64,000 nt of DNA from Chitinophagaceae bacterium (GCA_947380905.1 CANCSS010000004.1:8549-72548); one strand, 5' to 3'; shown: positions 24,813 through 58,059, numbered from the stretch's first letter. Made by a program: numbers and translations. The notes: a model not told the origin generated them from the sequence alone.

Positions 24813-24833
24813 TGTACAGTTTTATTTCTTTAA

Positions 24834-26099: not shown

Positions 26100-26121
26100 T
26101 TTTATTTTAATAAATAAATTA

Positions 26122-36029: not shown

Positions 36030-36063
36030 AAAAGGGAGTCCCAATTACTCGGGACTCCCTTTT
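36030..36063. terminator. Bidirectional rho-independent terminator
   Basis: AAAAGGGAGTCCC-aattactc-GGGACTCCCTTTT between convergent genes. Confidence 0.88.
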
Positions 36064-37039: not shown

Positions 37040-38437
37040 CTACTTTTTTGGAGGTACTTTTACTACCATGGTATCTGTTGGTAAATTTTCGGTCCGGTAA
37101 TTGCCAAAAATAATTTTAGCTTTTGGAAATGTTTTTTGAATTAATATAGAATCTTTATTGATGATGTTGGATTCGCCAAGGTATAATTCATTTAAATTAG
37201 AAAGTCTTTTTAATTGTAATAAACCCTTTAAGGTAATTTTTGTTCCTACTAAATTTAAATAATGTATTCTTTTTAAATTTTGAAAACTATTTAGTTGATT
37301 GTCCGTGATGCTGGAGTGTTCTATACTTAACCTGGTTAACGAGTCGCAAAAGGAAATAGCAGTAGCTAGCGCACTCGTAAAATTCATTCTTGGCATTTTT
37401 AGCCAAACAATATTGGCACCTAAATTTTTAATTAAATTATCAATGGTATCTGTGGTTTTTGCAACGGTAATAAAATTTGCCGTTAAGTAATTAGAATTAT
37501 TGGCCACTTTTAAAATGGTGACGCCCCATTTAGTTAAAGCATTGATATTATTTTGATTGGCTTGTTGAATTTCTTTAACAGGCACTTCGTTGTTGGTCAA
37601 AGGCTGGATGGTATTTTTTTCTAGTTTAGTCAAGATAGGAGCTATACTGGGTGGCTGTGTTAATTCTTTTACTTTTTTATCAAAATAGCCCCCCGAATTA
37701 ATCCACCATTCAAGTAAAATTCTTTCCTGTTCTGTTATTTGAGGTTTTCCTTTAGGTGGCATGTGTTTTTCATCCACAGGATCTAATATAATTTTTTTAT
37801 ACAGTGGGCTATTTAGGGCAGCCCCGTTATGAATAATGATGCCATCTTCTCCTCCTTTCAAAATCCATTCTTTGGTATCTAACCTTAATTTTCCTTTTTG
37901 TTTGATCTTAGAATGGCAGCCATAACATTTTTCTTCTAAAATAGGCTGGATAATATCGGCATACAAATAAGCTTCCTGTGCCATCGTAATAATGGGCTTC
38001 ACTTTTACTATTTTTTCTGAGGAGGTACTTTTTGTTAAATAACCTTCTCCATGGGTGAGTGTGCCCCCCAAATGTCCCGTAATAAAAATCAATACCAGTA
38101 AAGTGATCGAAATCCAATTTAATAATTTCTCTTTTTTCTTTTTTGTAAAATAAACACCCAGTATGGAAAATAACGCTACCGAAATGCCCAGCCATTGATG
38201 GTAAAATAAAACCTGTTCATCATATTCACCTTGGGAGGACAATGCCAATCCGCTTAAACAGGATAGGATAGCGGCTAGGGCACCTATTAAATAAGTAAAA
38301 GGAATAATAATCACAAAAGAAGCAAAGCGCTCTTTATAGGAGAGCCCATGTATTAAAATGGAAAACAACAATATCCCAATAGGTAAATGCACCAATAAGG
38401 GATGAAAATGTCCAAATAAATTAATAATGCGCTCCAA
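37040..38437 (-). CDS. Membrane His-rich (DUF2231-like) + planctomycete-type cytochrome c + LRR protein
   Basis: Four TM segments with HPLLVHLP, HQW and GHLGG-LTHG; CYGCH...HMPP; C-terminal LxxLxLxxxxI repeats. Confidence 0.8.
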   Translation of the reverse strand: MERIINLFGHFHPLLVHLPIGILLFSILIHGLSYKERFASFVIIIPFTYLIGALAAILSCLSGLALSSQGEYDEQVLFYHQWLGISVALFSILGVYFTKKKKEKLLNWISITLLVLIFITGHLGGTLTHGEGYLTKSTSSEKIVKVKPIITMAQEAYLYADIIQPILEEKCYGCHSKIKQKGKLRLDTKEWILKGGEDGIIIHNGAALNSPLYKKIILDPVDEKHMPPKGKPQITEQERILLEWWINSGGYFDKKVKELTQPPSIAPILTKLEKNTIQPLTNNEVPVKEIQQANQNNINALTKWGVTILKVANNSNYLTANFITVAKTTDTIDNLIKNLGANIVWLKMPRMNFTSALATAISFCDSLTRLSIEHSSITDNQLNSFQNLKRIHYLNLVGTKITLKGLLQLKRLSNLNELYLGESNIINKDSILIQKTFPKAKIIFGNYRTENLPTDTMVVKVPPKK

Positions 38438-38462
38438 TGAATTTTATTTTTTAAATAAAGAA

Positions 38463-39392
38463 TTAACTATGCTGATACCTTTTTCTTAATAACTGCATCA
38501 TGTATACATTGATCTCCCATTGATTGGATAGGGGCTGTTGAGTATAAGGCATGGTGGGCATATAATTGGGTGGACCAAATTCTGTTAAGAAAGTGAGTTG
38601 ATGTGCTCCTTTTTTAATTTTCATTTGTACCACTGCATCCCACCATTCCAAATGACGTTGCAGGGTGGTTTCCCATTCGGGGGCTCGTGGGTCATTTACT
38701 TGAGGACCTTCTGCATGACCAACGCGAGCATGAATATGATCGGTTCTAGACAAAGCCAATTGCACAGTTTTTTCTTGATCATGCAACAAGGATTCGTGCA
38801 CATTGCACCAATGTGAAATGTCCAATGTAATTCTAAGCGCTTCATTTTTTTCCATAAACTTTTTCGCATTGGGCGCAGCAAACAACATTCTTGAACGATG
38901 TGTTTCATGACAAATAGGAATGCCTGATTTTTTTGATTGTTCCGTGGTAAATTCTATTATTTCATTGTTCTCATCAAAAGAAAAATAATCTTTACCTGAA
39001 TGGCAATTGATATACAAAGGAGTTTGCTTTGTATTTTGAAGTAGGCTGCTTAGCATATTTTTGAATGCCGCTATATGTTTGTTGGGATCTTCTTCGCCTA
39101 CTCCACATAAAAATCCAATCGCTAAATCATGTTTTTTTAAAGCATCAAACAATTCGGTTTGGCCTTGTTGCTCCATGGGCCACCACATTTCTATACCATC
39201 GTATCCTGCTTTTTTTGCTTTGCCACAAAACGCATCTACGGTGCCTTCATAGCCCCAGTTGGTGGCCATGATAATGGGTTTAAAATTAGTAGGTTGCATT
39301 GTTTTAGTTGCATTTAAATATTTAAAAGGAGCCAGGCTTATCGCTGCAAGGCCTGTTGTATTGGTTAAAAATTTACGTCGATCTATTTTCAC
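38463..39392 (-). CDS. Sugar phosphate isomerase/epimerase TIM-barrel protein, Tat signal
   Basis: GTG start; DRRKFL, GYDGIE, HETHR, DISHW, HIHAR and TEFGP motifs. Confidence 0.85.
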   Translation of the reverse strand: MKIDRRKFLTNTTGLAAISLAPFKYLNATKTMQPTNFKPIIMATNWGYEGTVDAFCGKAKKAGYDGIEMWWPMEQQGQTELFDALKKHDLAIGFLCGVGEEDPNKHIAAFKNMLSSLLQNTKQTPLYINCHSGKDYFSFDENNEIIEFTTEQSKKSGIPICHETHRSRMLFAAPNAKKFMEKNEALRITLDISHWCNVHESLLHDQEKTVQLALSRTDHIHARVGHAEGPQVNDPRAPEWETTLQRHLEWWDAVVQMKIKKGAHQLTFLTEFGPPNYMPTMPYTQQPLSNQWEINVYMMQLLRKRYQHS

Positions 39393-39403
39393 AATGATTA
39401 TTT

Positions 39404-40903
39404 TTAAGCAACAATTTCATTAATCACTCTGCCGTGAACATCTGTTAATCTAAATTGTCTTCCTTGAGAAGTGTAGGTTAGTTTTTCATGATCAAAACCC
39501 AATTGGTTTAAAATGGTTGCTTGCATATCGTGCGCAGTCACTTTTCCGCTTATGGCACTGTATCCAATTTCATCCGTCTCTCCAAAACTACTTCCTTGTT
39601 TAATTCCACCACCCGCCATCCAAGTAGTAAAAGCTTCTGTATGATGATCTCTGCCCTTAAAAGGCATTGATTTCCCATCTCTGTTTTCTTGCATTGGGGT
39701 GCGTCCAAATTCTCCACCCCATACCACCAATGTTTCGTCTAATAAGCCTCTTTGTTTTAGATCTAACAACAATGCGGTGATGGGCTTGTCTATATTTCTA
39801 CATTTGTTTACCAATCCAATGTCAACGGCAGTACTGCCATCTGTGCCATGACTGTCCCAACCCCAATCAAACAATTGTACAAAGCGTACCCCTTTTTCTA
39901 CCAACTTACGGGCCAATAAAACATTGTTGGCAAAACTTGCTTTGCCTGGTTGCGTACCATACATTTCGTGGATATAAGCAGGTTCGTCATTGATGTTCAT
40001 TACATCAGGAACTGAAATTTGCATTTTAAATGCCATTTCATATTGCGCCATTCTAGCAATGATCTCCGGATCTTGAAATTCATTGTAGGTTAATTGATTC
40101 GCTTCGTTGATGGCATCGATGGATGCTTTGCGTAAATCTCGATCTATGCCTGCAGGATCTTTTAAAAATAAAACAGGATCCCCTTCATTGCGACATTGCA
40201 CGCCTTGATATACAGATGGTAAAAAGCCACTTCCCCAAACACTTTTTCCCGCATCTGGATTATTTCCACCCGATGTAAGCACTACAAATCCTGGCAGATT
40301 GCTGTTCTCACTTCCTAGACCATAGGTAACCCAGGCACCAATACTAGGTCGGCCTAAACGGGGCGAACCGGTATGCATTAATAATTGTGCTGGACCATGA
40401 TTGAATTGATCGGTCTGTACTGCTTTTAAAAAACTTATTTCGTCTGCTACCGTTGCTAAATGAGGAAGGTTATCGGATATCCAAGCGCCACTTTGGCCCC
40501 TTTGTTTAAACACGGCTTGTGGTCCTAACATTTTTGGTACGCCTCTTATAAATGCGAATTTTTTTCCTTCCAATAAACTTTGCGGACAATCTTGACCATC
40601 TAATTTTAATAAGTCAGGTTTAAAATCAAACAATTCTAATTGAGAGGGCGCTCCTGCCATGTGCAAGTAAATAACTGATTTTGCTTTTCCAATAAAATGA
40701 GGCGCACGCGCCATTAAAGGATTGGTATTTGTAAAATTGCCAAAGCTGTCTTTGTTTCCTAGCCAATCACAGCCTTGTAACATGGAGCCCAATGCCATTG
40801 CACCCATCCCCGAAAAACATTCTTTAAAAAAATATTTTCTGGTGATATGTTCGGTGGTCGCAATGGTCGCCTCCTTAATTATTTTTTTATTTTCTTTACT
40901 CAT
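39404..40903 (-). CDS. DUF1501 family protein (copy 1), probable Tat lipoprotein
   Basis: KAKSVIYLHMAGAPSQLELFD, NHGPA, WDSH, WGGEFGRTP, RDHH and RLTDV motifs; LQGC lipobox. Confidence 0.9.
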   Translation of the reverse strand: MSKENKKIIKEATIATTEHITRKYFFKECFSGMGAMALGSMLQGCDWLGNKDSFGNFTNTNPLMARAPHFIGKAKSVIYLHMAGAPSQLELFDFKPDLLKLDGQDCPQSLLEGKKFAFIRGVPKMLGPQAVFKQRGQSGAWISDNLPHLATVADEISFLKAVQTDQFNHGPAQLLMHTGSPRLGRPSIGAWVTYGLGSENSNLPGFVVLTSGGNNPDAGKSVWGSGFLPSVYQGVQCRNEGDPVLFLKDPAGIDRDLRKASIDAINEANQLTYNEFQDPEIIARMAQYEMAFKMQISVPDVMNINDEPAYIHEMYGTQPGKASFANNVLLARKLVEKGVRFVQLFDWGWDSHGTDGSTAVDIGLVNKCRNIDKPITALLLDLKQRGLLDETLVVWGGEFGRTPMQENRDGKSMPFKGRDHHTEAFTTWMAGGGIKQGSSFGETDEIGYSAISGKVTAHDMQATILNQLGFDHEKLTYTSQGRQFRLTDVHGRVINEIVA

Positions 40904-40907
40904 TCCA

Positions 40908-43664
40908 TTAATTTTTTGTCAAAAATTCATCCGTATTTAATAAAGCAGTTGCCACCATCACCAAAGCTGCCCCAGAAGGCCCTGCTTTTTTATCACCTGT
41001 GATTTGTTCTATTTTTATGGTGTCTTGACTATATTTTGCAAAAGCATTGTTGTATAATTTTTCAAAAACTTTTTGTTTTTCTGGTGAAATTGTTTTGTTA
41101 AAAGCCAGCTCATAGCCCATACTTATCTGTTTGCTTGCATTTTGTGGCACCATGGATTTAATTCTTTGTGCAAAATGTTGAGCTGCTTCAATGTAAACAG
41201 AATCGTTTAATAAATTTAATGCTTGCAAAGGTGTATTGGTTCTAATTCTTCTCACCGTACATACTTCTCTACTGGTTCCATCAAAACTTAACATGGTTGG
41301 ATAAGGAGCAGATCTTTTCAAAAAGGTATACAAAGCCCTTCTGTATTGATTGCCTTCTTTGCTTAAATTCCAGGTAGCTCCATTGTAAGGCGATTTCCAA
41401 ACACCTTCAGGTTGATAAGGCATGACACTAGGGCCATACATTTTTGCACTTAACAACCCACTCACTGCCAATGCTTGATCTCTAATTTGTTCTGCAGACA
41501 ATCTTATGCGTGGCCCCCTTGCATAATATTTATTGAATGGATCTTTTAACACCGCCTCTTTATTAAATCTTGAATCTTGCTGATAGGTAGCACTCATCAC
41601 TACTTCTTTGATTGTTTTTTTCAAACTCCATTGATGCGTATTCATCAACTGATAGGAGAAATAATTTAATAAACTTTCATGGGTAGGTGCAATGCCTTGA
41701 GTCCCTAAGTCTTCTAAAGTTTCTGCAATGCCTTGACCAAACAATTGCTCCCAAATTCTATTTACAATGGTTCTAGAGGTAAGTGGATTTTTTTTATCCG
41801 TCAACCACATGGCCATTCCAAGTCGATTGCGCGGAGCACCTGCTGGCAATCCACCTAAGGAAGCAGGAACATCTGCTGTCACCTCTTTTCCTTTCACCAA
41901 CCAATTTCCCCTTTCAAATACATTGGTAGTTCTTGATAGGTTGAATGGATTCTCCATCATGATGGGGGTCTCCGTTGTATTTTTTGAATACAATAATGAA
42001 TCGAAATTTTTATAAGCGGTTTCAAAACCTGCCAAGTCTTTTCCTGGAAATGGATTGGTAAAATGAAACCAATCAAATTGAATACCACTTTCATCTGGAC
42101 CTTTTAAAAGGGAGTTGCTGTAGGTTAAATAAAAAGAATGTCTGCCGATGGTTTGCGGGATAGTTATCGTCGCAATTTTCCAAGCACCTTTAGAATTTTC
42201 AACTGGAATATTTTTTACGATTTCGCCATTAGCGGAATCGATGCGAATTTGAAAATGACCACCTTGCTTCCAACTAATATATCTATAGTACAACTGTGTA
42301 AAGCCGGTTAAATCTATATTTTTTATTCTAGCAGATCCATGGTTTCTAAACTGCAACCATTTGGTATCGGCTAAAGCACCATTTTTTATTTCATCAGCAA
42401 CCAAAGAATTGATGGCAGGTTGACCCGTTTTTACAAATTGAATGATTTCTTTTTCTCTTGTGGGAGCATTGCTGTGCAACCAATTTCTTAAAGCAACCAA
42501 TTTGATACTATCGGTATTGTGAAACTCTTTTAACACGGGGTATTCTGCCCAGGTATCTTCATCTCGAGTATTATTGAACAAGGCTAAAAATTTATAATAC
42601 TCCTCTTGTCTAAAAGGATCATAAGGATGACTGTGGCATTGCACGCAGGCAAAACTAGTTCCCATTATACTTACCCAAGTAGTGTTGACTCTATCTATGA
42701 CAGCGGCAGTTCTAAATTCTTCATTGTCTGTACCTCCCTCATCATTGGTTAAAGTGTTGCGATGAAAAGCAGTCGCAATGTATTGTGCATCTGTAGGATT
42801 GGGTAATAAGTCTCCCGCCAACTGCTCCGTTAAAAAAATATTATAAGGTTTATCGGTATTAAAAGCATCGATTAACCAATCACGATACCTCCAAATATTT
42901 CTAGCATCATCTTTTTCAAATCCTTTGGTATCTGCATACCTGGCCATGTCCATCCACATACTGGTCCACTTCTCACCATATTTAGGCAATGCCAATAATT
43001 CATCTACCAATGTTTCAAATGCATTTTCTTTTGTGCTTGATAAATATTTTTTTGCAATCGCATCTGGGGCAGGCATTCCAATGATATCTAAACTTACTCT
43101 TCTTAATAGCGTTGCTTTGTCTGCCATTTCCGAAGGCGTTAATTTTTCTTGTTTTAATTTTTCATAAATAAAAGCATCTACATTGTTTTTGATCCATTTG
43201 GGTTTGCCAAATAATCCAAAAGGTCCTTTCCCAATAGTAGGAATCGGTGTTTCTTTTACAGGCACATAAGCCCAATGGTCTCCCCATTCAGCTCCTTGAT
43301 TGATCCATTTTATTAATAAGGCAATTTCCTCGTTGCTTAAAGGGGGATGCTTATAAGGCATACGCTCCTCAGGGTCTTTTAAATAAAGACGTTTGATCAT
43401 TTCACTATTACTGGCATCTCCTGGAATGATGGCCACTTTGCCTGATTTATTTTTGGCAAGTGCATCTGATCTAAATAGCAAGCTAAAACCACTTTGTCTT
43501 TTTACACCACCATGGCAGGTGATACATTTTTTATTTAAAAGGGGTTTGATTTCTGCATTAAAATCAACCTTATTATTGCTTACAAAATAACTAGATACAA
43601 CCGTAACCAAAATAACAGAAGAGACCACTATCCAATAAGCGGTGGGTATTTTAATAAAACGCAT
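40908..43664 (-). CDS. PSCyt1/DUF1549(PSCyt2)/DUF1553(PSD1) di-heme protein with CBM6-like insert (copy 1)
   Basis: CITCH...RMP, HWAY, RYRDW, CVQCHSHPYDP, NPLTSR and TPLQAL motifs. Confidence 0.9.
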   Translation of the reverse strand: MRFIKIPTAYWIVVSSVILVTVVSSYFVSNNKVDFNAEIKPLLNKKCITCHGGVKRQSGFSLLFRSDALAKNKSGKVAIIPGDASNSEMIKRLYLKDPEERMPYKHPPLSNEEIALLIKWINQGAEWGDHWAYVPVKETPIPTIGKGPFGLFGKPKWIKNNVDAFIYEKLKQEKLTPSEMADKATLLRRVSLDIIGMPAPDAIAKKYLSSTKENAFETLVDELLALPKYGEKWTSMWMDMARYADTKGFEKDDARNIWRYRDWLIDAFNTDKPYNIFLTEQLAGDLLPNPTDAQYIATAFHRNTLTNDEGGTDNEEFRTAAVIDRVNTTWVSIMGTSFACVQCHSHPYDPFRQEEYYKFLALFNNTRDEDTWAEYPVLKEFHNTDSIKLVALRNWLHSNAPTREKEIIQFVKTGQPAINSLVADEIKNGALADTKWLQFRNHGSARIKNIDLTGFTQLYYRYISWKQGGHFQIRIDSANGEIVKNIPVENSKGAWKIATITIPQTIGRHSFYLTYSNSLLKGPDESGIQFDWFHFTNPFPGKDLAGFETAYKNFDSLLYSKNTTETPIMMENPFNLSRTTNVFERGNWLVKGKEVTADVPASLGGLPAGAPRNRLGMAMWLTDKKNPLTSRTIVNRIWEQLFGQGIAETLEDLGTQGIAPTHESLLNYFSYQLMNTHQWSLKKTIKEVVMSATYQQDSRFNKEAVLKDPFNKYYARGPRIRLSAEQIRDQALAVSGLLSAKMYGPSVMPYQPEGVWKSPYNGATWNLSKEGNQYRRALYTFLKRSAPYPTMLSFDGTSREVCTVRRIRTNTPLQALNLLNDSVYIEAAQHFAQRIKSMVPQNASKQISMGYELAFNKTISPEKQKVFEKLYNNAFAKYSQDTIKIEQITGDKKAGPSGAALVMVATALLNTDEFLTKN

Positions 43665-43959
43665 TCGTACTCAATATTAATCAACGATTAAGTTATATCA
43701 TTTTTTAATAATAATCAATTCTTGTTCAATGATTTAAGTCCACCATTTCATTAGTTTACTAAAATTAAATGTTAAGAAAAACATAAAATTCGAATTAATA
43801 AGAAAAAAAATAATTGCGCTTACAAACTGATAGTCAATAGTTTAAAAACGAGATGCAAGTGACACTTGGCTTTAGTATTTTAAAGAAATGAGAATATATG
43901 AGAATTATATGTAATTTTTATATGTCGATTTGCATATTAAAAAACCAAACCAAACCAAT

Positions 43960-44763
43960 ATGAAAAAAATCTATCAACAAATCCTTGATTTCCCCCAGAT
44001 GGTAAATCAAAAGGTTTTGAATGCGCAGTTAAATGCAGCAGTGGATAATTTCGATTCTCAACATGGGGTTAGATCTTATACCAAAAGTATCTACCAGATT
44101 GTCTCCATGGCGGTGTTTATTCTTATGGAAGTAGCCATTATTCATGGCGCTATGACTTATTTTAGCAATCCAGCTACTGGCCTTGCCAAATTAGGCAGTG
44201 TGCTTACTACTCTTTTGCTGGTTTATTCTGCCTTTCCCATTGCACACATTATTAGAGCCAGAGGTGAAAGCCTAGGCGCTTCTCATAATGGCATGGTAGG
44301 TTTTATTTTTAAAGATTTTGTTACCACCAATATTAGAATAGTAGGGGAAGTGGCAGCAGTAGGGGCTTTTATTGGCGCTTGTTGCTTCACTTTGTCTTTC
44401 GTATTTGACAGTAATTTATACAATGCCGCTGCTGAAGTGCCTTTAAGCGCTGTGAGCGGGGTAGCTGGTTTGCCTATGGATGGATTAAACACTTTATTTA
44501 ATGCTTTAAAATTAGAGTACTTGACTACCGTGTTACATACATTTACTGGTTTTAAAATGGCTGGTACGCAAAACTTTACTGGTGATATGTTATGGAACAT
44601 CAATGACGTATTACTAGTAGGGGGTGCTTTTGTAAATGTAGTAGCTGGTTTAGTTGTTTTGTATGTAAACCTGGCTATTTATCATTTCTTATACAGCATC
44701 GTTGCTAACTTTATTAAATGGATTCAAAGCCCTTCTATTCCAATTTCAATGAAAAGCAAATAG
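43960..44763 (+). CDS. Hypothetical polytopic membrane protein
   Basis: ATG at 43960 after an A/C-rich leader; several TM segments; followed by a terminator. Confidence 0.7.
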   Translation: MKKIYQQILDFPQMVNQKVLNAQLNAAVDNFDSQHGVRSYTKSIYQIVSMAVFILMEVAIIHGAMTYFSNPATGLAKLGSVLTTLLLVYSAFPIAHIIRARGESLGASHNGMVGFIFKDFVTTNIRIVGEVAAVGAFIGACCFTLSFVFDSNLYNAAAEVPLSAVSGVAGLPMDGLNTLFNALKLEYLTTVLHTFTGFKMAGTQNFTGDMLWNINDVLLVGGAFVNVVAGLVVLYVNLAIYHFLYSIVANFIKWIQSPSIPISMKSK

Positions 44764-44788
44764 TAGCGGAATAAAAATTTAAAATTTT

Positions 44789-44822
44789 GCCCTGCTTCGA
44801 GACATCGAGGCGGGGCTTTTTT
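44789..44822 (+). terminator. Rho-independent terminator
   Basis: GCCCTGCTTCGA-gaca-TCGAGGCGGGGC (with G-U pairs) followed by a T run. Confidence 0.75.
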
Positions 44823-45495
44823 ATGGAAGAATTTTTCCATCTTCCATATGAATGATGCGATGGGTTCGTTCAGCAAAGCTGGGGTCGTGTGTCACAATTA
44901 ATAAAGTTTGGTTAAACTCATCGGATAATTTATTAAAAATATCAAATACCAAGTCGCTATTTTTTTTATCTAAATTCCCAGTGGGTTCGTCCCCCATAAT
45001 AATATGTGGGTCGTTAATAAGGGCTCTGGCAATGGCTACTCTTTGTTTTTCTCCTCCTGAAATATGGTTTGATTTTTTTAAAGCCAATTGTTCAATACCC
45101 AATATTTTTAATTTTTCCATGGCACGATGTTCTACTTCTTCCCTACTGTATTTATTGAGCTTTAAACCAGGCAGCATTACATTTTCTAAAACATTGAATT
45201 CGTTTAATAAATAATGAAACTGAAAAACAAATCCAATTTTTTCATTTCTTATCTTAGCCAAAAAAGCTTCATTCTTTTTTGGCATCTCTTCTCCATCAAT
45301 GAATAAGGTCCCTTCATAATCCGTATCCATCGTAGACAATACATACAATAGTGTTGATTTTCCACAACCCGATTTTCCTGTTAAAGAAACAAATTCTCCT
45401 TTATTGATACTAAAGGTCAAGTCCGCTAATACCTGTATGCGGACAGGATCATGAAAGAATTTATTGATATTTTTTGCTTCTAATATTTTGTTCAT
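44821..45495 (-). CDS. ABC transporter ATP-binding protein (LolD/MacB-like)
   Basis: GKSGCGKST, GFVFQF, SGGEKQR, DEPTGNLD and VTHD motifs. Confidence 0.92.
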   Translation of the reverse strand: MNKILEAKNINKFFHDPVRIQVLADLTFSINKGEFVSLTGKSGCGKSTLLYVLSTMDTDYEGTLFIDGEEMPKKNEAFLAKIRNEKIGFVFQFHYLLNEFNVLENVMLPGLKLNKYSREEVEHRAMEKLKILGIEQLALKKSNHISGGEKQRVAIARALINDPHIIMGDEPTGNLDKKNSDLVFDIFNKLSDEFNQTLLIVTHDPSFAERTHRIIHMEDGKILP

Positions 45496-45496
45496 G

Positions 45497-47856: not shown

Positions 47857-47940
47857 AGTATAAAGTTATGATTTATTTAGAAGTTCTTAATTGAATAAAT
47901 TGCTTTTTTAGTATATTTATAAACAACTATATGCGTTTAG

Positions 47941-48774: not shown

Positions 48775-48834
48775 TATTAAATTTATTTCTTCTAATCGAA
48801 TCCACTTTTATCTAACTTCTTTCAAATTAGCTTC

Positions 48835-50973: not shown

Positions 50974-50985
50974 TCTAAAAAGGAA

Positions 50986-53118
50986 TTAGTCTAAAAAAAG
51001 TTCATCTACAAAAATCCATGCTGGCTTCCCTTTTCCTGGGTGCCATTTTGGTAATTTTTTTACATTTAGTAAAGTAAACCTATAATATTTAAAGGCTTTA
51101 TTGTCAGGGAAAGAACAGCTGAATGATTTATTGCCCCTAAACTTATTTGTTTTTTCAAGAGAAGGGAAGGAGGCTTGATTTAAATATTTAAAAGCTTTGC
51201 CATCATTACTGCCTTCAATTTTAATGGAAATAATAGGAAATATATAGGCGCCCATATCTATAAAAGCATTGAAAGTAGCGTGCTTTAATTGTTTTGCTTG
51301 TAAAAAGCTGGTTACAAAAATCATATTGCTGTCTTTGTATGCCAACCATTTTCCACCAGAAAAATTTTGCTCCCCCAACTCATAATCAACAAGTGTTTTA
51401 GCCCCTTTGCCAGCATATTTTTTATCCGGGTTGGTAATCAAATAGATAGAGTCTGGATGAATTTCCGATTTATAGAAAGTTTTTTCAACGATATCGCTGC
51501 CTAGCCAACCTGGTTTATAGGCCTTCGTCTTTAAAATACCACTTTTTGTAAGCTGAAACTTTTTGGTGTAAATCGGACTATTAATAGAATCTGGTACAGT
51601 GCCATCAATGGTGTATCTAACAATAGCGCCCTTCATAAAATGCTTTAGTGTTACATCCAAGTGGTTCACGATAATACTGGAGTCTTGCTCAATAACCGGA
51701 CTGGTTATTTGTAAAACTTTATCGTCTAAATTATCTCCAATAATAATTTTAGTTTTTTTATTGCTAGCCATTAATGCAGCGTATTCTTTTTCGACAGCTT
51801 TGTTATTCCATATATGAACTAAGGTAAAAGGGCTTTTTTCAATAAAGGAGGCTAAGGTGGTTGGATTTAAATCTATGCCACAAATAGAAATGTTTTTTAA
51901 TTTTAATAAACCCTTTAAAGGCAACAAGTCATTTAAACTAAGTTTGGTATAATTTAAATTTAATTTTCTGAGGTTTGAAAATGAGCTAATAATACCGATG
52001 TCTTCTTTGGTAAGCGGCATGCCTTGCATATTCAAACTGGCCACTTTTTCTTTAATGGGCTCCAATTTTTTCAAAGATTCTGTTTTATAAAAAGAACCTT
52101 GAAAAAAATCAACAAAAATTTCTTCTGATCCAAAGTAAGAATAGTTGACCGTGCAATAGCTGGTATTGTATACTTTTAAATCTGGGGCATTGTTTTTATT
52201 GTTATCCTCCCCCTTTTTTGGTGCCTTATAGGCATTGACCAATAAGGCTAAAGTATCTGTGTTTGTTAATTCATTTAATTTTTTCTTAAAATCACCGCCT
52301 GCTTTTACCCATCTATTTAGTAAGTTAAGTTCTTCTAGGGTAAGTTGAAGCTTTCCATCTGGAGGCATGTGTTTTTCATCAGCATTAGGCAAATGAATTC
52401 TTTGCAGCAACAAGGCTTCTTGATTGTTTATGCTATTTAATAAATTACCATCCTTTCCCCCTTTGATAATAAATTCGGGTGTATTTAATTGTAATTTGCC
52501 TTTTACTTTTTCAGGTCCATGGCAACCCACACATTTTTGTTCTAAAATGGGTGCAATTGCTTTTTCATATACCGTGAGCGTACTATCTACTTTATTTATT
52601 TCTTGGACTGGCGCTGAGGTAGGAAATGCTAGTACATCTTCTCCATGAGTGAGTTGTGCTCCTTTATGTGTAAAAAATAATAAAACAATTAAATAAGCTA
52701 CCCCTATTGCTTTTTTCCAGTTAAATTTTAATGAAGCCATATAAATAAATGCCCAACTGATGCAGGCAATGGCTACGCCACCCCATTTGTGTAAATCAAC
52801 AATGGTTTTATCATAGGCGTCTTGCTTGGACAAAAAGATACCAAACAAAGCTACCAGAGTAGCCAATACAGCATTGCTAGTGAATAGCAATCTTTCAAGT
52901 GGAAGGTCTAATTTTTTATTGGGTATAAAAATCAAATAGACAACAATGGCCACCCCAAGTACAATAGGGAAATGCAATAGCAAGGGATGTAGTTTCCCTA
53001 ACCATTCTAAACCATGATTTATTTTTGTAGTTTCATTAAAGAAAGCTAAAATAATTAATAAAGGATTTAACAGCCATAACAATCCTTCTCCCCATTGATT
53101 TATTTTATGGATGCGCAT
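50986..53118 (-). CDS. Membrane His-rich + cytochrome c + LRR + Fn3-like + discoidin-like protein
   Basis: HPLLLHFP, HKW and THKG-LTHG; CVGCH...HMPP; LRRs; RYTIDGTVP (Fn3/chitobiase-like); PKWHPGKG-WIFVDE C domain. Confidence 0.8.
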   Translation of the reverse strand: MRIHKINQWGEGLLWLLNPLLIILAFFNETTKINHGLEWLGKLHPLLLHFPIVLGVAIVVYLIFIPNKKLDLPLERLLFTSNAVLATLVALFGIFLSKQDAYDKTIVDLHKWGGVAIACISWAFIYMASLKFNWKKAIGVAYLIVLLFFTHKGAQLTHGEDVLAFPTSAPVQEINKVDSTLTVYEKAIAPILEQKCVGCHGPEKVKGKLQLNTPEFIIKGGKDGNLLNSINNQEALLLQRIHLPNADEKHMPPDGKLQLTLEELNLLNRWVKAGGDFKKKLNELTNTDTLALLVNAYKAPKKGEDNNKNNAPDLKVYNTSYCTVNYSYFGSEEIFVDFFQGSFYKTESLKKLEPIKEKVASLNMQGMPLTKEDIGIISSFSNLRKLNLNYTKLSLNDLLPLKGLLKLKNISICGIDLNPTTLASFIEKSPFTLVHIWNNKAVEKEYAALMASNKKTKIIIGDNLDDKVLQITSPVIEQDSSIIVNHLDVTLKHFMKGAIVRYTIDGTVPDSINSPIYTKKFQLTKSGILKTKAYKPGWLGSDIVEKTFYKSEIHPDSIYLITNPDKKYAGKGAKTLVDYELGEQNFSGGKWLAYKDSNMIFVTSFLQAKQLKHATFNAFIDMGAYIFPIISIKIEGSNDGKAFKYLNQASFPSLEKTNKFRGNKSFSCSFPDNKAFKYYRFTLLNVKKLPKWHPGKGKPAWIFVDELFLD

Positions 53119-53120
53119 AC

Positions 53121-54566
53121 TTAACTAATAATTTCATTCACAACTTTTCCAGCTACATCTGTTAATCTGTAACGGCGTCCTTGATGTTTGTAAGTAAAGC
53201 GCTCATGATCTATGCCCATTAAATGCATTACGGTAGCTTGGAAATCGTGCACATGCACTGGTAAGGAATTAATATTATATCCAAAATCATCTGTTTCGCC
53301 AAATACGCCTGGTTTTACACCTCCTCCAGCCATCCAAATAGTGAAACATTTAGGATGATGGTCTCTACCGTAATTGTCTTTGGTAAGTGCACCTTGACAA
53401 TAATTGGTTCTTCCAAACTCGCCACCCCATATAATTAAAGTTTCATCCAACAAGCCTCTTTGTTTTAAATCTTTTATCAATGCTGCAGAAGATTGATCTA
53501 CATCCTTACATTGTCCTTCTAACTCTTTAGGTAAATTACCATGGGTATCCCAGCCTTGATGGTACAATTGAACAAAGCGTACTCCATTCTCAGAAAGCTT
53601 TCTTGCCAATAAACAATTGGCTGCATACGTACCAGGGATCAAACATTCAGGTCCATACATTTTTACTATGGATTCAGGCTCGTTTTGCAAAGAAGTGATT
53701 TCAGGTACGGCCATTTGCATGCGGTAAGCCAATTCGTATTGTTGTATTTTAGTTACAATTTCAGGATCTCCTATTTTACTATAGGACTCTTGATTCAATG
53801 CTGCAATTTCATCCAGCATCACACGCTTATCGCCACGTTTAATAAATTCAGGGTCGGTTAAATATTTTACAGGCTCTTCACCGCTGCTAAATTGAACGCC
53901 TTGGTGAATAGAATCTAAAAATCCATTGTTCCATAATTTTGAATACACCCCCTGTCCATTTCCTTTCCCTTTGCTTAATAAAACACAAAAAGCAGGTAAA
54001 TTTTTATTTTCACTTCCTAAGCCATAACTAATCCAGGAACCCATACTTGGACGGTTACCTACTTGAGACCCTGTTTGAAAAAATGTAAGTGCAGGATCAT
54101 GATTAATAGCCTCGGTATACATGGTTTTTACGATACAAAGATCATCGGCCATGCTGGCAATATGTGGGAGCGTTTCACTAAACCAAGCACCATTGCTACC
54201 ATGTTGTGAAAAATTAAATTTAGTGCCAGCCAATGGAAATTTGGCTTGATTGGCCGTCATACCAGTTAATCTTTGTCCCATTCGAATACTTGCAGGTAAA
54301 TCAGTTCCTTGCATTTTTTGTAACAATGGTTTGTAATCAAAAAGATCTAATTGAGAGGGAGCTCCATTTTGAAATAAATAAATGACACGTTTTGCTTTAG
54401 GTGCAAAATGGGGCAATACATTGGTAAATAATTCCTCTTCGTTGCTTGCATTAAAAATACCAGGCACCATTAAAGAGCCCAATGCCAGTCCACCAATACC
54501 TAAACTTAATTTAGATAAAAATTTACGACGATTTTGATTTAAGCCATGTTCTAAAAATTCATTCAT
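53121..54566 (-). CDS. DUF1501 family protein (copy 2), Tat signal
   Basis: NRRKFL, KAKRVIYLFQNGAPSQLDLFD, NHDPA, WDTH, WGGEFGRT, RDHH and RLTDV motifs. Confidence 0.9.
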   Translation of the reverse strand: MNEFLEHGLNQNRRKFLSKLSLGIGGLALGSLMVPGIFNASNEEELFTNVLPHFAPKAKRVIYLFQNGAPSQLDLFDYKPLLQKMQGTDLPASIRMGQRLTGMTANQAKFPLAGTKFNFSQHGSNGAWFSETLPHIASMADDLCIVKTMYTEAINHDPALTFFQTGSQVGNRPSMGSWISYGLGSENKNLPAFCVLLSKGKGNGQGVYSKLWNNGFLDSIHQGVQFSSGEEPVKYLTDPEFIKRGDKRVMLDEIAALNQESYSKIGDPEIVTKIQQYELAYRMQMAVPEITSLQNEPESIVKMYGPECLIPGTYAANCLLARKLSENGVRFVQLYHQGWDTHGNLPKELEGQCKDVDQSSAALIKDLKQRGLLDETLIIWGGEFGRTNYCQGALTKDNYGRDHHPKCFTIWMAGGGVKPGVFGETDDFGYNINSLPVHVHDFQATVMHLMGIDHERFTYKHQGRRYRLTDVAGKVVNEIIS

Positions 54567-54575
54567 ATCAATAAT

Positions 54576-56912
54576 TTATGATTTTGTAATGGTTTCCTCC
54601 AAATTATATAGAATAAGTATTGTTTTCATTAAAGCAGCAGCTTCTGCTTCGTTGTATTTTTTAGTTGGATGCATAAATTCACCCACTTCTAATGTATTTT
54701 TTAAAATCTTATTATTTGAATTAAAGAAAGCGACTTGATTTTCACAAAAAGAAATTAATTTTTTCTTTTCAAAGCTGGACGGTTTTCTTATGATGATGGT
54801 TTCAAATGCCTGTTCAATTTTATCTTCCAAATTTTTATTGGTACCAGAAATATTTTCTGCAAGTACACGTGCTGCTTCTAATACTGCAGGGTCATTTAAC
54901 ATGGTCAATGCCTGCAATGGTGTATTGGTGCTCGCTCTTTTGGCTTCGCATTGGTCTCTGTTGCTTGCATCAAAGATCATCATGCTTGGAGGAGGTGCAG
55001 TTAGTTTAATAAAAGTATACAACCCCCTTCTGTATATGGCAGGGCCATGGTCTTGTTTGTAGGTAGCTAAAACTCCTCGGCCAGAAGTAGTACTTTCCCA
55101 TACACCCTTAGGCTGATATGGCTTAACACTTGGTCCGCCAATGGCAGGATTTAACAACCCACTGGTGCTTAAAATCCAATCTCTTACAATTTCTGCTTTA
55201 AATCGAAGGCGAGGTGATCTGGAATAATAAATATTTTCAGGATCCAGCTCCAATTGTTTTTTACTTACTATACTGGATTGTTGATAGGTATTACTGGTTA
55301 GAATTTTTTTAATTAGATATTTAATATCCCAGTTGTGTTCCATAAAATCTACCGCCAACCAATCTAACAATTCAGGATGGGACGGCAACTCACCTTGCAA
55401 TCCATAATCACTAGATGTTTTAACAATGCCTTTTCCAAATAATTCTTGCCAAATAAAATTTACAAATACTCTTGCTGTAAGCGGGTTCTTTTTTTCTACC
55501 GTCCATTTTGCCAAACCCAATCGATTGCGTTCATATTTTAAAGTATCATAAGGTAGGATAGATTCCAAGCCAGTAGGTTTTACCTCAACATCCGTAGGAG
55601 CATCGTATCTGCCTCTGCTTAAAATATAAGTGGGTCTTGCCTTTACAGTATCTCCAATTTTCCAATCACCCATCACGGAAACTTCTAATTTGTTCGTGTC
55701 TGGATGATTGATAAAAGTCATCAATTTATTTTTTTCTTCTGCGTCTATATATAGTTTAGGAGTTTTAGCGGGTGTTGAAACACCAACATCACCTTCGTAT
55801 CCCTTTTCTTTACTCATGTTAAAAAAGGCATACAATTGATAATAATCTTTATTGGAGAAGGGGTCGTATTTATGATCATGACATTGCGCACATTCTATGG
55901 TTACCCCTAAAATGGCTTTCCCATAAGTTCTTGTTTTATCGATATTATAAGAAACTCTGTATTCCTCATCTATAACTCCGCCCTCTTCTGTGTATTTATG
56001 ATTTCTAAAAAAAGCAGTAGCTAATATAGTAGACTTGGTAGCATTGGGCATTAAGTCGCCGGCAATTTGTTGTGTTAAAAATTGATCATACGATAAGTTC
56101 TTGTTGAAAGCATTGATTACCCAATCTCTCCAAGGCCATTGAGATCTTATATTGTCATCCTGAAATCCATAAGAATCAGAATAACGTGCAAGATCCATCC
56201 AAAGCAATGCCATCTTTTCGCCATACGCCGGCTTCTTTAACAATTGATCAATTAATTCTGAATACCAATTTTCACTAGAGGAGCTGTTCCAGCGATTTAT
56301 TTCTTCAAAGGTGGGCGCGATTCCAGTGATATCAGCAAAAGCTCTTTTAATAAGGGTTTCACGGGTAGCAGGCGCATTGGGACTGAAACCCTTTTGTTCC
56401 ATTTTTTGTAAAATAAAAGGGTCAATTTCATTTTTAACCCATTTGCTGTGGTCTACTTCCGGCAACTTTGCCTTTACTGGTGCTACAAAAGCCCAATGCT
56501 TTTCATACTTGGCACCCTGCTCAATCCATTTTTTGAATAATTTAATCTCTTCTGTGCTCAACCTTGCTAAGTGGCTTTCAGGCAAGGGCATCATGATCGC
56601 AGGATCGTTAGAAGAAATGCGTTTTATGAGTTCGCTTTTATCGGGCTGTCCAGGGACAATTGCATAATGCCCTTTATTTTTTTCTAATTCTCCAAAAGCG
56701 CTAGCGGGAAGATCCAATCTTAATCCAGCCCTTACTTTAGATACATCTGGCCCATGACAAGAAAAACATTTATCAGATAATAAAGGACGTATGTCTCTGT
56801 TATAAGAAACAGCTACACTTGAAAACTCTTTTTGTGCATTGGTAAATTTTATCCAACCATATACTAATCCAACAACAATAAGTAGAAGTCCTAATAAGGT
56901 ATATCTTTTCAT
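54576..56912 (-). CDS. PSCyt1/DUF1549/DUF1553 di-heme protein (copy 2)
   Basis: CFSCH...MMP, HWAF, WPWRDW, CAQCHDHKYDP, PSHPELLDWLA and TPLQAL motifs. Confidence 0.9.
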   Translation of the reverse strand: MKRYTLLGLLLIVVGLVYGWIKFTNAQKEFSSVAVSYNRDIRPLLSDKCFSCHGPDVSKVRAGLRLDLPASAFGELEKNKGHYAIVPGQPDKSELIKRISSNDPAIMMPLPESHLARLSTEEIKLFKKWIEQGAKYEKHWAFVAPVKAKLPEVDHSKWVKNEIDPFILQKMEQKGFSPNAPATRETLIKRAFADITGIAPTFEEINRWNSSSSENWYSELIDQLLKKPAYGEKMALLWMDLARYSDSYGFQDDNIRSQWPWRDWVINAFNKNLSYDQFLTQQIAGDLMPNATKSTILATAFFRNHKYTEEGGVIDEEYRVSYNIDKTRTYGKAILGVTIECAQCHDHKYDPFSNKDYYQLYAFFNMSKEKGYEGDVGVSTPAKTPKLYIDAEEKNKLMTFINHPDTNKLEVSVMGDWKIGDTVKARPTYILSRGRYDAPTDVEVKPTGLESILPYDTLKYERNRLGLAKWTVEKKNPLTARVFVNFIWQELFGKGIVKTSSDYGLQGELPSHPELLDWLAVDFMEHNWDIKYLIKKILTSNTYQQSSIVSKKQLELDPENIYYSRSPRLRFKAEIVRDWILSTSGLLNPAIGGPSVKPYQPKGVWESTTSGRGVLATYKQDHGPAIYRRGLYTFIKLTAPPPSMMIFDASNRDQCEAKRASTNTPLQALTMLNDPAVLEAARVLAENISGTNKNLEDKIEQAFETIIIRKPSSFEKKKLISFCENQVAFFNSNNKILKNTLEVGEFMHPTKKYNEAEAAALMKTILILYNLEETITKS

Positions 56913-56952
56913 AGCTAATTTGAGTAAAAAAGTAGGGTGAAATTGGTTGTTT

Positions 56953-57978
56953 TTAAACCTTAGTAAATTTATAAGGGTATACTTTCCCAGAAGCCCATTG
57001 TGCTACATAAATACTTCCTTCATCGTCTACACAAACATCGTGTGGGTGAACAAATATTTTTTCTTTTTGAGACATTGGTTGTAACACATCGTTTTCATAC
57101 ACCGGCGCAGATCCACCTAAATTAGAAACTACTTTATTGTCTTTGTCTAAAATGGTTACAAATCCAGAATTGATGGTATCTAAATTAGGCGAACGCAATA
57201 CAGCAGCATACAAGTAATCGCCTTTAATAACGGGTCTACATACACATGCACCTGGTAAATGAATTACTTCTAATAATTTTCCATCCATAGAGAAACGCTT
57301 GAATGCATTTCTAGTACGGTCGGTGATAATTAAGGTAGGCTTGGCTTTTCTGTAGTCTACACATATTCCATGTGCATTGTCTAAATGCTCCTCTCCTGTT
57401 CCTCTTCCTCCAAATGAATTTTTTAATTTTCCATATTCATCATAATGTAAAATATGTTGAGCGCCATAACCATCTGCAATGTAAAAGTCTCCATTCGCTA
57501 ACACAGCAGTTTCTGTTGGAACAAAAGCTTCCTTTTTTTGATACGCTGGTAAATCGGCAGGGGGATCGATGGTTAATAAAATTTTACCATCAATGGTTGT
57601 TTTATATACTTGATGTCTGTTGGTATCGGTAATGAATAATAAATCTTCTTTCCCATTGTGTTGCACAGTGAGCCCGTGTGCTCCTGGGAATACGGTACCC
57701 CAAGTATCAATCAGCTTACCACTTTTATTATAAATGATGATGTTATTTTTAGTTTCATTGGTCAATAAAAGAATACGACCTTTCCCATCTTGAATCATTT
57801 CATGACAATCGTTCACAGGAGTTTGGTCGGCATTCAAAGTGCCCCAATTGGTATTCAATTGGTAGGTCATTCCATTTTGACCATACACTTGACCTTGCAC
57901 TGGACGCATTAAATTTTTAGTAATTAGTAACCCCGCTGTGGAAACCACGGTGTTTTTTATAAAAGTGCTTCTTTTCAT
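56953..57978 (-). CDS. NHL-repeat six-bladed beta-propeller, peptidyl-alpha-hydroxyglycine lyase-like
   Basis: GAHGL, IADGYG, NAHGI, TDR and HPHDVCVD motifs; Tat-like leader (MKRSTFIK). Confidence 0.78.
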   Translation of the reverse strand: MKRSTFIKNTVVSTAGLLITKNLMRPVQGQVYGQNGMTYQLNTNWGTLNADQTPVNDCHEMIQDGKGRILLLTNETKNNIIIYNKSGKLIDTWGTVFPGAHGLTVQHNGKEDLLFITDTNRHQVYKTTIDGKILLTIDPPADLPAYQKKEAFVPTETAVLANGDFYIADGYGAQHILHYDEYGKLKNSFGGRGTGEEHLDNAHGICVDYRKAKPTLIITDRTRNAFKRFSMDGKLLEVIHLPGACVCRPVIKGDYLYAAVLRSPNLDTINSGFVTILDKDNKVVSNLGGSAPVYENDVLQPMSQKEKIFVHPHDVCVDDEGSIYVAQWASGKVYPYKFTKV

Positions 57979-58020: not shown

Positions 58021-58059
58021 ACAAAAGAACGGCGAGCCTCCCTAAAGAAACTCGCCGTT
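58021..58059 (-). terminator. Rho-independent terminator after the phosphoesterase gene
   Basis: Minus strand AACGGCGAGTTTCT-TTAG-GGAGGCTCGCCGTT followed by CTTTTGT. Confidence 0.65.

What the first reader, a model, noticed from the sequence alone, without database searches (positions are those of the whole stretch)
37040..57978. Two paralogous di-heme PSD1 / DUF1501 / membrane-cytochrome operons with different accessory enzymes: candidate uncharacterised periplasmic redox-cleavage system
Seen in sequence: operon A (43664 to 36087) is PSD1, DUF1501, TIM-barrel isomerase, TM-His/cyt c/LRR, alpha/beta hydrolase. Operon B (57978 to 50986) is NHL propeller, PSD1, DUF1501, TM-His/cyt c/LRR/Fn3/discoidin. 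Intergenic gaps are 2-40 bp. Each PSD1 has two CxxCH motifs and each membrane protein has one. Established: DUF1501 with DUF1549/DUF1553 is a recurrent gene pair, expanded in Planctomycetes, with no function I know of. Inference: the conserved three-gene core is an electron conduit (membrane heme carrier, cytochrome c, di-heme enzyme) working with a Tat-exported metalloenzyme. A variable lyase/isomerase and binding modules would set the substrate. The carbohydrate-rich neighbourhood points to glycans or glycoconjugates.
Basis: partly seen in the sequence, partly recalled or inferred. Interest (0 to 1): 0.82.

Follow-up and report, generated by a model that had tools for sequence, protein, structure and literature searches.

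The report
Membrane-wired haem-DUF1501 oxidative cleavage operons
Two related gene clusters in a Bacteroidota genome each encode a two-haem-motif protein that is predicted to bind a sulfatase-fold protein of a long-unexplained family, plus a membrane cytochrome that likely feeds the pair electrons and a likely lyase, so they probably oxidise and then split a sugar-linked substrate outside the inner membrane; the core pair was described in 2012 but its chemistry is still unknown.

Summary
In detail: both operons, the gaps (2-40 bp) and all six CxxCH motifs are present, and the genome has two further copies. The PSD1+DUF1501 pair is the known, functionally unexplained PVC module (Kamneva 2012).

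Added here:
(1) The membrane DUF2231-cytochrome gene follows the pair in 76 of 80 close loci and 17 of 24 sampled Bacteroidota places, and is fused to PSD1 in this genome's C2 copy.
(2) DUF1501 has the sulfatase/alkaline-phosphatase fold with an invariant His at the nucleophile position, so it is probably not a standard hydrolase.
(3) PSD1 and DUF1501 are predicted to bind (0.78, best control 0.00), with that His and the second CxxCH at the interface.
(4) The NHL protein keeps PAL's catalytic residues.

Against: DUF1501s whose partners lack haem keep the same site; the lyases are optional; the alpha/beta hydrolase is not co-conserved; no substrate or expression data.

Best reading: menaquinol-fed periplasmic oxidation followed by lyase cleavage (0.35). 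This scan noted both operon types earlier on other DNA. New variant of a known kind.

The parts
40908..43664 (-). PSD1-A, 918 aa: N-terminal hydrophobic stretch, PSCyt1 (CxxCH at 47), PSCyt2/DUF1549 (CxxCH at 340), inserted CBM6-like domain, PSD1/DUF1553
39404..40903 (-). DUF1501-A, 499 aa; R-K-Y-F variant of the Tat motif followed by a lipobox-like Cys (read by eye); keeps the invariant H, D-x-H, E-F-G-R and H set
38463..39392 (-). Twin-arginine TIM-barrel protein of the AP_endonuc_2 clan, 309 aa; conserved E163, D191, H194, H219/H221, R223, E271; inferred metal lyase or isomerase
37040..38437 (-). Membrane cytochrome A, 465 aa: DUF2231 helices with conserved H12, H17, H80, H122, H129 (inferred b-haem ligands), PSCyt1 C171/C174/H175 with M226, LRR
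36087..37034 (-). Alpha/beta hydrolase, 315 aa; 5 bp behind operon A but not co-conserved, so probably not part of the system
36030..36063 (.). Terminator-like hairpin between the convergent MFS gene and the alpha/beta hydrolase; likely end of operon A
   Evidence: listed on +; T-run also on -
56953..57978 (-). PAL-like NHL propeller, 341 aa, Tat-like N-terminus (K-R-S-T-F here, R-R consensus in homologues); H101, H203, H313, Y171 and R221 invariant in 33 homologues
54576..56912 (-). PSD1-B, 778 aa: N-terminal helix, PSCyt1 (C49/C52/H53, M108; FoxE-like domain), PSCyt2 (C341/C344/H345), PSD1; no inserted sugar-binding domain
53121..54566 (-). DUF1501-B, 481 aa, twin-arginine signal; alkaline-phosphatase/sulfatase fold; H156, D340, H342, E383, R386 and H403 invariant
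50986..53118 (-). Membrane cytochrome B, 710 aa: His-bearing membrane helices, PSCyt1 (CxxCH at 196), LRR, C-terminal Fn3-associated module like that of a GH20 hexosaminidase
58027..58059 (-). GC-rich hairpin followed by T-rich sequence between the upstream phosphoesterase gene and the NHL gene (read by eye, coordinates approximate); suggests operon B starts at the NHL gene

Best explanation
Each operon likely encodes a membrane-wired periplasmic oxidation system: the DUF2231 membrane cytochrome would take electrons from menaquinol and pass them through c-type haems to a predicted PSD1-DUF1501 heterodimer, which would oxidise a sugar or glycoconjugate so that a likely metal lyase can split the activated bond. 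Steps: (1) quinol oxidation at b-type haems held by the conserved membrane histidines (inferred); (2) transfer via the membrane protein's His/Met PSCyt1 haem and PSD1 haem 1 (motifs shown, haem binding inferred from FoxE likeness); (3) catalysis at the PSD1-DUF1501 interface, where the second CxxCH faces His156 of a His3/Asp/Glu metal site (interface predicted, metal inferred); (4) O2-dependent hydroxylation of the substrate, held by a CBM6, LamG or Fn3-linked module (inferred); (5) cleavage by the PAL-like zinc lyase in B, which implies a carbinolamide (a carbon hydroxylated next to an amide nitrogen), or by the TIM-barrel enzyme in A (residues shown, activity inferred).
For: Membrane cytochrome gene behind the pair in 76 of 80 B-type loci (hand count: 2 cut by contig ends, 2 without) and in 17 of 24 places from a 200-genome phylum draw, plus 1 fusion. 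DUF2231-PSCyt1-PSCyt2-PSD1 is one polypeptide in this genome's C2 copy and in L141 and L081. A planctomycete with 42 PSD1 matches has a stand-alone PSCyt1-DUF2231 gene. Membrane histidines, CxxCH and Met are conserved in 90% or more of 50 homologues. PSCyt1 matches the haem protein FoxE (E 6e-13; Z 9.7, rmsd 3.4 over 101 residues). Complex PSD1(136-700)+DUF1501(50-481): score 0.78, best of 3 controls 0.00; mark reached by 116 of 157 solved complexes and 2 of 215 mismatched pairs (counts hold only roughly with my alignments); runs agree in at least 94% of contacts; partner pLDDT at least 87; interface lists PSD1 338, 341, 308-314 and DUF1501 154-157. His sits at the nucleophile position in 105 of 105 rows with a residue there, and no Asp is conserved after strand 1. 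PAL residues are conserved. PAL-like or TIM gene at E<=1e-100 in 11 of 12 PSD1-positive genomes against 3 of 188 negative. The genome has a futalosine-type menaquinone gene, cytochrome c assembly genes and TatC. Direction rests on recalled potentials: menaquinol is low, His/Met c-haems usually high.
Against: Three DUF1501 proteins partnered by DUF1800, with no CxxCH seen in those partners, keep H156, D340, H342, E383, R386 and H403, so the site exists without a c-haem partner. No membrane partner was seen next to 5 of 24 sampled places. PAL-like gene adjacent in only 46 of 80 B-type loci; 2 of 5 such genomes had no match at all, one of them a small MAG. PAL-like genes also stand alone among unrelated genes. 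No O2-activating motif is recognisable, and the PSD1 core has no solved relative to argue from. No coordinates were available, so no haem or metal distances were measured. Many neighbours are peptidases or housekeeping genes, not sugar enzymes, with no baseline computed. The co-occurrence counts are inflated by kinship and by profiles built from operon-linked copies.
Confidence: 0.35

Rival explanations
1. Same complex, opposite direction: a dehydrogenase that oxidises a sugar (for example to a keto-glycoside) and sends electrons to the membrane chain, after which the TIM-barrel or PAL-like enzyme eliminates, as in the 3-keto-glycoside pathway.
For: All architectural evidence of the best explanation. 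Gfo/Idh/MocA and 3-keto-disaccharide hydrolase genes lie between PSD1 and DUF1501 in L090 and behind the triad in L072. TIM-barrel 'sugar phosphate isomerases' are 3-keto-glucoside lyases in 10.1101/2024.03.25.586180 (passages).
Against: The TIM profile matched no solved structure at E<=1. Reducing menaquinone through His/Met haems would be uphill (recalled). A PAL-type substrate is not a keto sugar.
Confidence: 0.2
2. DUF1501 is a non-redox hydrolase or transferase for an anionic ester or amide (His nucleophile or metal-activated water); PSD1 or DUF1800 is a structural subunit, and the haems and membrane cytochrome only load, reduce or regulate its metal site.
For: Sulfatase/phosphatase fold; E383 aligns with the metal Asp of the sulfatase G-D-H-G motif; R386 invariant; the same site is kept with haem-less DUF1800 partners; sulfatases lie next to some loci (L146; He 2017).
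Against: Canonical Ser/Thr/formylglycine-Cys nucleophile and strand-1 Asp are absent. A dedicated, sometimes fused membrane conduit and a lyase needing a pre-oxidised substrate are hard to explain by regulation alone.
Confidence: 0.2
3. PSD1 is a maturation enzyme in the manner of MauG or MbnH (recalled) that oxidatively modifies DUF1501, for example at Trp339 next to the metal ligands.
For: Two CxxCH motifs; predicted contact near the partner's site; W339 in 104 of 106 and W178 in 103 of 105 rows of alignment A1.
Against: W339 is Phe in 2 of 3 DUF1800-linked DUF1501s; no cytochrome c peroxidase/MauG Pfam hit; variable sugar-binding inserts in PSD1 point to an outside substrate.
Confidence: 0.08
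4. The system is a quinol-fed reductase or peroxidase for envelope protection or metal handling, unrelated to catabolism; lyases and sugar genes are neighbours by habit.
For: Quinol-to-periplasm wiring fits reductases; many loci have housekeeping neighbours; one R. baltica PSD1 gene is discussed under stress response (passage).
Against: Sugar-binding modules sit inside PSD1 and the membrane protein; 42 PSD1 matches in one planctomycete suggest many substrates; the PAL-like gene moves within the operon yet stays (13 upstream, 33 internal).
Confidence: 0.1

Closest known systems
DUF1501 (PF07394) + PSCyt1/PSCyt2/PSD1 (PF07635/PF07583/PF07587) module of PVC bacteria (Kamneva et al. 2012, PMC3542564, section 22 read; He et al. 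2017, PMC5615132, passages)
   Same: Same two-gene core, twin-arginine DUF1501, carbohydrate-binding inserts; those papers already propose electron transfer, an exported enzyme and a carbohydrate role, function unknown.
   Different: Here a third gene, DUF2231-PSCyt1-LRR, is linked or fused, with a PAL-like or TIM-barrel enzyme. The four-gene form in Kamneva has PPC-like and PSCyt1/WD40 proteins instead. Supplements of both papers were not read and may show Bacteroidetes loci.
Alkaline phosphatase / sulfatase / NPP superfamily (ENPP6 5ege, PafA 5too, steroid sulfatase 1p49)
   Same: Core fold (Z 19.1, rmsd 3.0 over 239 residues; Foldseek E 9e-8); E383 at the metal-Asp position.
   Different: His at the nucleophile position, no conserved Asp after strand 1, D-x-H motif, predicted haem-protein partner; 8-17% identity.
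Peptidylglycine alpha-amidating monooxygenase (PHM + PAL); PAL structure 3fvz
   Same: The NHL protein keeps the Tyr/Arg dyad and three histidines; the logic 'hydroxylate, then cleave' would be the same.
   Different: No PHM copper monooxygenase is in the locus; the proposed oxidising half is unrelated; substrate unknown; the PAL-like gene is optional.
FoxE (5mab) and the c-haem domain of hydrazine synthase alpha (5c2v)
   Same: The PSCyt1 domain matches by sequence profile and fold.
   Different: Only residues 33-137 match; the PSCyt2-PSD1 core has no clear solved relative.
3-keto-glycoside oxidation/elimination pathway (10.1101/2024.03.25.586180, passages)
   Same: Periplasmic oxidation followed by a metal TIM-barrel lyase; its gene families occur in the window and in some related loci.
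   Different: That pathway uses NAD Gfo/Idh/MocA oxidoreductases; no sequence match of this TIM family to the solved lyases was found.
DUF1501 + DUF1800 pair (Goncalves-type chitin-synthase loci, PMC5122149, passages)
   Same: Same invariant DUF1501 residues; twin-arginine signal; helical partner gene adjacent.
   Different: Partner has no CxxCH; profile comparison with PSD1 gave only 39 columns at probability 13% (3-sequence profile).

Membership tests
DUF1501 + PSCyt1/PSCyt2/PSD1 module | DUF1501 gene adjacent to a PSCyt1-PSCyt2-PSD1 gene | tested here: met
   both operons, gaps 4 and 9 bp
DUF1501 + PSCyt1/PSCyt2/PSD1 module | twin-arginine signal on DUF1501 (sometimes present) | tested here: met
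   R-R-K-F in B; R-K-Y-F variant in A; motif search only, no signal-peptide predictor
DUF1501 + PSCyt1/PSCyt2/PSD1 module | c-type haem actually bound at the CxxCH motifs | not testable with these tools
   motifs invariant; genome has cytochrome c assembly genes
Alkaline phosphatase superfamily | core alpha/beta fold | tested here: met
Formylglycine sulfatases | Cys/Ser nucleophile in C/S-x-P-x-R at the start of the helix | tested here: not met
   H156-D-P at the start of helix 156-165; position mapped by topology and motif spacing, not by superposed coordinates
Alkaline phosphatase / NPP hydrolases | Ser/Thr nucleophile and metal Asp at the end of strand 1 | tested here: not met
   consensus L-F-x-x-G-G-P-S, no conserved Asp; same mapping caveat
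Alkaline phosphatase / NPP hydrolases | C-terminal metal ligands (Asp/His set) | tested here: inconclusive
   E383 aligns to the Asp of G-D-H-G (E 0.16); D340, H342, H403 invariant, geometry not measured
PAL lyase | Tyr/Arg catalytic dyad (rat Tyr654/Arg706; human Tyr651/Arg703 in PMC10303134) | tested here: met
   Y171 and R221 align to 3fvz residues 163 and 215, offset 491; invariant in 33
PAL lyase | three zinc histidines (585, 690, 786; roles recalled) | tested here: met
   H101 and H313 aligned by HMMER; H203 matched by motif by eye because that stretch was misregistered; all invariant
PAL lyase | cleaves alpha-hydroxyglycine amides | not testable with these tools
   needs an assay
3-keto-beta-glucoside lyase (TIM barrel) | sequence or structure match to the solved lyases | tested here: inconclusive
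   AP_endonuc_2 clan only; five-sequence profile; not folded
DUF2231 membrane cytochrome b | conserved membrane histidines able to hold b-haem | tested here: inconclusive
   five His in 90% or more of 50; one member hits cytochrome b561 at E 3.5e-4; not folded
MauG / cytochrome c peroxidase di-haem enzymes | CCP_MauG domain and fold | tested here: inconclusive
   only the N-terminal domain resembles YhjA (Z 5.4); the core was not searched alone

The most novel reading that the evidence does not exclude
A menaquinol-fed periplasmic oxygenase with a haem and a non-haem metal site shared across a PSD1-DUF1501 interface, paired with a PAL-type lyase: a bacterial working counterpart of the animal cytochrome b561/PHM/PAL amidation chain built from unrelated parts. 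It would be a redox enzyme in the alkaline phosphatase superfamily and a new oxidative route for breaking glycan or glycoconjugate bonds, explaining the dozens of copies in Planctomycetes and Verrucomicrobia.
Probability: 0.17. Interest if true: 0.9.

Novelty: new variant of a known kind. Interest (0 to 1): 0.6.

Why it matters
The DUF1501/PSD1 module has 41 domain copies in R. baltica (passage) and 42 PSD1 matches in one Pirellulaceae genome, yet no function. The Bacteroidota form carries its membrane partner and a recognisable lyase in the same operon, in few copies, and in cultured strains named (Pedobacter frigoris, Flavihumibacter profundi, Niabella insulamsoli, Compostibacter hankyongensis). 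That gives specific residues, a predicted interface and a handful of assays. A 2.0 Mb MAG keeping four copies suggests the function matters to such cells.

Tried and rejected
Sequence search of DUF1501-B against the PDB: 0 hits at E<=10; the profile gave only weak sulfatase hits. PSD1 model: no Foldseek match at E<=0.001; VIA matched only the PSCyt1 domain clearly; the core was not folded alone, so 'no known fold' is not claimed. TIM barrel: no informative PDB or NCBIfam match. No MauG/CCP family hit. DUF1800 against PSD1 profile: probability 13%, homology not established. The search for homologous proteins returned only 84-90% identical relatives, not used. No RNA holder was listed. Promoter scan at chance level, 62 against 69.1 +/- 8.9. 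menD not over the cut-off; a futalosine-pathway gene was found instead. The Atlas gave no answer. The DUF1501 tree was not obtained, so 'A-type' and 'B-type' are best-BLAST labels and all locus counts are hand counts. The original PAL structure paper was not held. Rejected: the alpha/beta hydrolase as a member (orthologues in L004, L006, L007 lie away from any A operon; none in 5 TIM-bearing A loci); His156 as merely a haem ligand (kept with haem-less partners); strict one-to-one pairing of lyase and clade. Literature: 13 papers hold DUF1501 or DUF1553, 8 hold PSCyt1/PSCyt2/DUF1549 terms, 1 holds DUF2231 (listing only), 18 hold the PSCyt phrases, 6 hold DUF1800. In the passages I read none assigns a function or names the membrane or PAL-like partner. 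Subscription journals and supplements were not searched.
Full report
Observation. The nine genes are intact on the minus strand at the stated places. Gaps are 4, 11, 25 and 5 bp in operon A and 40, 9 and 2 bp in operon B. Each PSD1 protein has two CxxCH motifs and each membrane protein one. Pfam gives PSCyt1, PSCyt2 and PSD1 in both large proteins, a CBM6 insert in A, DUF1501 twice, DUF2231+PSCyt1 in membrane protein A and PSCyt1+Fn3_assoc in B. Hairpins lie after the alpha/beta hydrolase and between the upstream phosphoesterase and the NHL gene (by eye). The genome is a 1.97 Mb assembly, 82% complete; close loci carry Chitinophagaceae/Sediminibacterium titles. It has two more copies: C3 (membrane cytochrome, PSD1 with a LamG insert, DUF1501) and C2.

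What is already known. Kamneva et al. 2012 (PMC3542564, section 22 read) described DUF1501 with PSCyt1/PSCyt2/PSD1 as a conserved module of PVC bacteria and a few Bacteroidetes. They proposed cytochromes passing electrons to proteins or sugars and a Tat-exported enzyme, function unclear. He et al. 2017 (passages) tied it to carbohydrate modules and sulfatases and found it richer in epilimnion genomes. My searches showed no functional assignment and no mention of the membrane or PAL-like partner; supplements and subscription journals were not seen. This scan had noted both operon types in other genomes; those are unchecked notes and are not counted as support.

Is the triad real? In the best 80 of 591 loci related to DUF1501-B, a membrane-cytochrome gene follows in 76, two are cut by contig ends and two lack it; PSD1 precedes in 79 (hand count). 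These are close relatives. In an even draw of 200 Bacteroidota genomes 12 have PSD1. I fetched 24 of their 25 places: all have DUF1501 within three genes, 17 have a separate membrane-cytochrome gene on the same strand, 1 has it fused, 5 show none, and 1 is cut off. DUF2231, PSCyt1, PSCyt2 and PSD1 form one chain in this genome's C2 copy and in L141 and L081. In a Pirellulaceae genome with 42 PSD1 matches, none of the 39 inspected has such a neighbour, but one stand-alone PSCyt1-DUF2231 gene exists. That Pfam search is insensitive: it found 2 of the 4 copies in G000. Five membrane histidines, the CxxCH and a Met are conserved in 90% or more of 50 homologues.

DUF1501. The model (pLDDT 91, pTM 0.89) has the alkaline phosphatase/sulfatase fold (Foldseek E 9e-8; Z 19.1, rmsd 3.0 over 239 residues to ENPP6). 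His156 starts the helix where that family keeps its nucleophile and is present in 105 of 105 rows with a residue there. No Asp is conserved after strand 1. E383 aligns with the metal Asp of G-D-H-G. Across 11 proteins of 15-58% identity, H156, D340, H342, E383, R386 and H403 are invariant. I infer a metal site of three His and two carboxylates rather than a standard hydrolase site.

PSD1 and the complex. The model (pLDDT 93.8) matches FoxE and hydrazine synthase alpha in the PSCyt1 domain. The remaining core has no clear solved relative, though it was not searched alone. C341, C344 and H345 are invariant in 103 rows, and no distant His or Met is conserved that could be a sixth ligand for haem 2. 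The complex of PSD1 136-700 with DUF1501 50-481 scored 0.78 against 0.00 for the best of three controls. That mark was reached by 116 of 157 solved complexes and 2 of 215 mismatched pairs (roughly valid here); runs agree in at least 94% of contacts and the partner's pLDDT is at least 87. No solved complex of these families turned up. The interface lists PSD1 338, 341 and 308-314 and DUF1501 154-157, so the second haem motif and His156 both lie at the interface; a direct contact between them is not among the printed pairs. This supports binding and does not show it.

Accessory genes. The NHL protein aligns with rat PAL (3fvz): Y171 and R221 with the Tyr654/Arg706 dyad (dyad role from PMC10303134, passages), H101 and H313 with His585 and His786, and H203 with His690 by motif. 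All five are invariant in 33 homologues. It is adjacent in 46 of the 80 loci, upstream in 13 and internal in 33, and also occurs in A-type and LamG-type operons. The TIM barrel occurs in five A-type loci. In the 200-genome draw, at E<=1e-100, PAL-like genes are in 8 of 12 PSD1-positive and 3 of 188 negative genomes, the TIM gene in 6 of 12 and 0 of 188, and either in 11 of 12. At looser cut-offs each is in 5 of 188. Kinship and profiles built from linked copies inflate this. Several PAL-like genes stand alone. The alpha/beta hydrolase does not travel with operon A.

Substrate. Sugar-binding modules sit inside the proteins: CBM6 in A, LamG in C3, and in membrane protein B a module matching the C-terminus of a GH20 hexosaminidase (E 6e-40). 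Some operons enclose GH95, or Gfo/Idh/MocA with a 3-keto-disaccharide hydrolase; others follow SusC/SusD or lie beside NagB, GH43, GH144-like or sulfatase genes. A 66% identical orthologue of the window's GH36-like gene lies inside an A-type operon. Many other neighbours are peptidases or housekeeping genes, I scanned only selected neighbours, and there is no baseline. Glycans or glycoconjugates are the best guess, not a result.

Counter-evidence. Three DUF1501 proteins next to DUF1800 genes, whose products show no CxxCH, keep the full invariant set. His156 is therefore not merely a haem ligand, and the family's chemistry may not need c-haem. This keeps a hydrolase or transferase reading alive.

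Mechanism. The genome has a futalosine-type menaquinone gene, cytochrome c assembly genes and TatC. Menaquinol is a good donor and His/Met c-haems are usually high in potential (recalled), so flow from the membrane outward is the easier direction. With a PAL-type lyase, whose known substrates are hydroxylated amides, I commit to quinol-fed oxidation at the PSD1-DUF1501 interface followed by lyase cleavage (0.35). The broader claim of a membrane-wired redox complex is about 0.7. Rivals: dehydrogenase (0.2), non-redox hydrolase with redox support (0.2), protective reductase (0.1), maturase (0.08).

Verdict. Real, conserved, and a member of the known DUF1501-PSCyt/PSD1 module; not a canonical sulfatase or phosphatase by the residues tested. 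The linked or fused membrane cytochrome, the predicted interface and the PAL-like partner make a twenty-year-old unknown testable, but no activity is shown and the same operons were already seen elsewhere in this scan. New variant of a known kind, interest 0.6.

Noticed in passing
window 4395-8841 and 22653-26799: GMC oxidoreductase, FAD oxidoreductase, three genes with 3-keto-disaccharide hydrolase (DUF1080) domains and a Gfo/Idh/MocA gene: likely parts of the 3-keto-glycoside pathway.
   Followed up: no
window 48835-50973 (+): 712 aa GH36-like protein (weak Pfam hit only), convergent with operon B; a 66% identical orthologue lies inside an A-type operon in G041.
   Followed up: partly
window 58092-60524 (-): Beta-propeller + phosphoesterase fusion directly upstream of operon B in the closest relatives only (L004-L007); separated by a hairpin.
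   Followed up: partly
L001:3687-8226 (G000 contig C3): Genes that look like a sialic acid cluster (aldolase-like, Kelch protein, MFS, sialidase-like; read by eye, not scanned) end 2 bp from the convergent third DUF1501 operon.
   Followed up: no
L002:8528-12515 (G000 contig C2): Natural DUF2231-PSCyt1-PSCyt2-PSD1 fusion followed by a divergent DUF1501 with a lipobox-like Cys: a two-gene minimal version, the best target for expression.
   Followed up: partly
L013, L021-L023, L031, L035, L037, L042, L049, L052, L060, L090, L091: A stand-alone gene of about 260 aa repeating the Fn3-associated C-terminal module lies between the NHL and membrane genes.
   Followed up: partly
L145:5083-9515 (G241): A close PAL-like gene follows an AXE1 esterase and an FAD oxidoreductase (PF12831) with no DUF1501 among the scanned neighbours: possibly another oxidoreductase-lyase pairing.
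   Followed up: no
L103:8473-10188 and L009:3016-3945: Formylglycine-generating-enzyme-like domains near DUF1501 loci, one fused to two PSCyt1 domains, although DUF1501 lacks the sulfatase Cys.
   Followed up: no
L022: A contig labelled Synechococcus carries a Chitinophagaceae-like operon (80% identity); probably misbinned.
   Followed up: no
window 17123-18178, 27675-28418, 43930-44763: Three ORFs (351, 247 and 277 aa) with no Pfam match.
   Followed up: no
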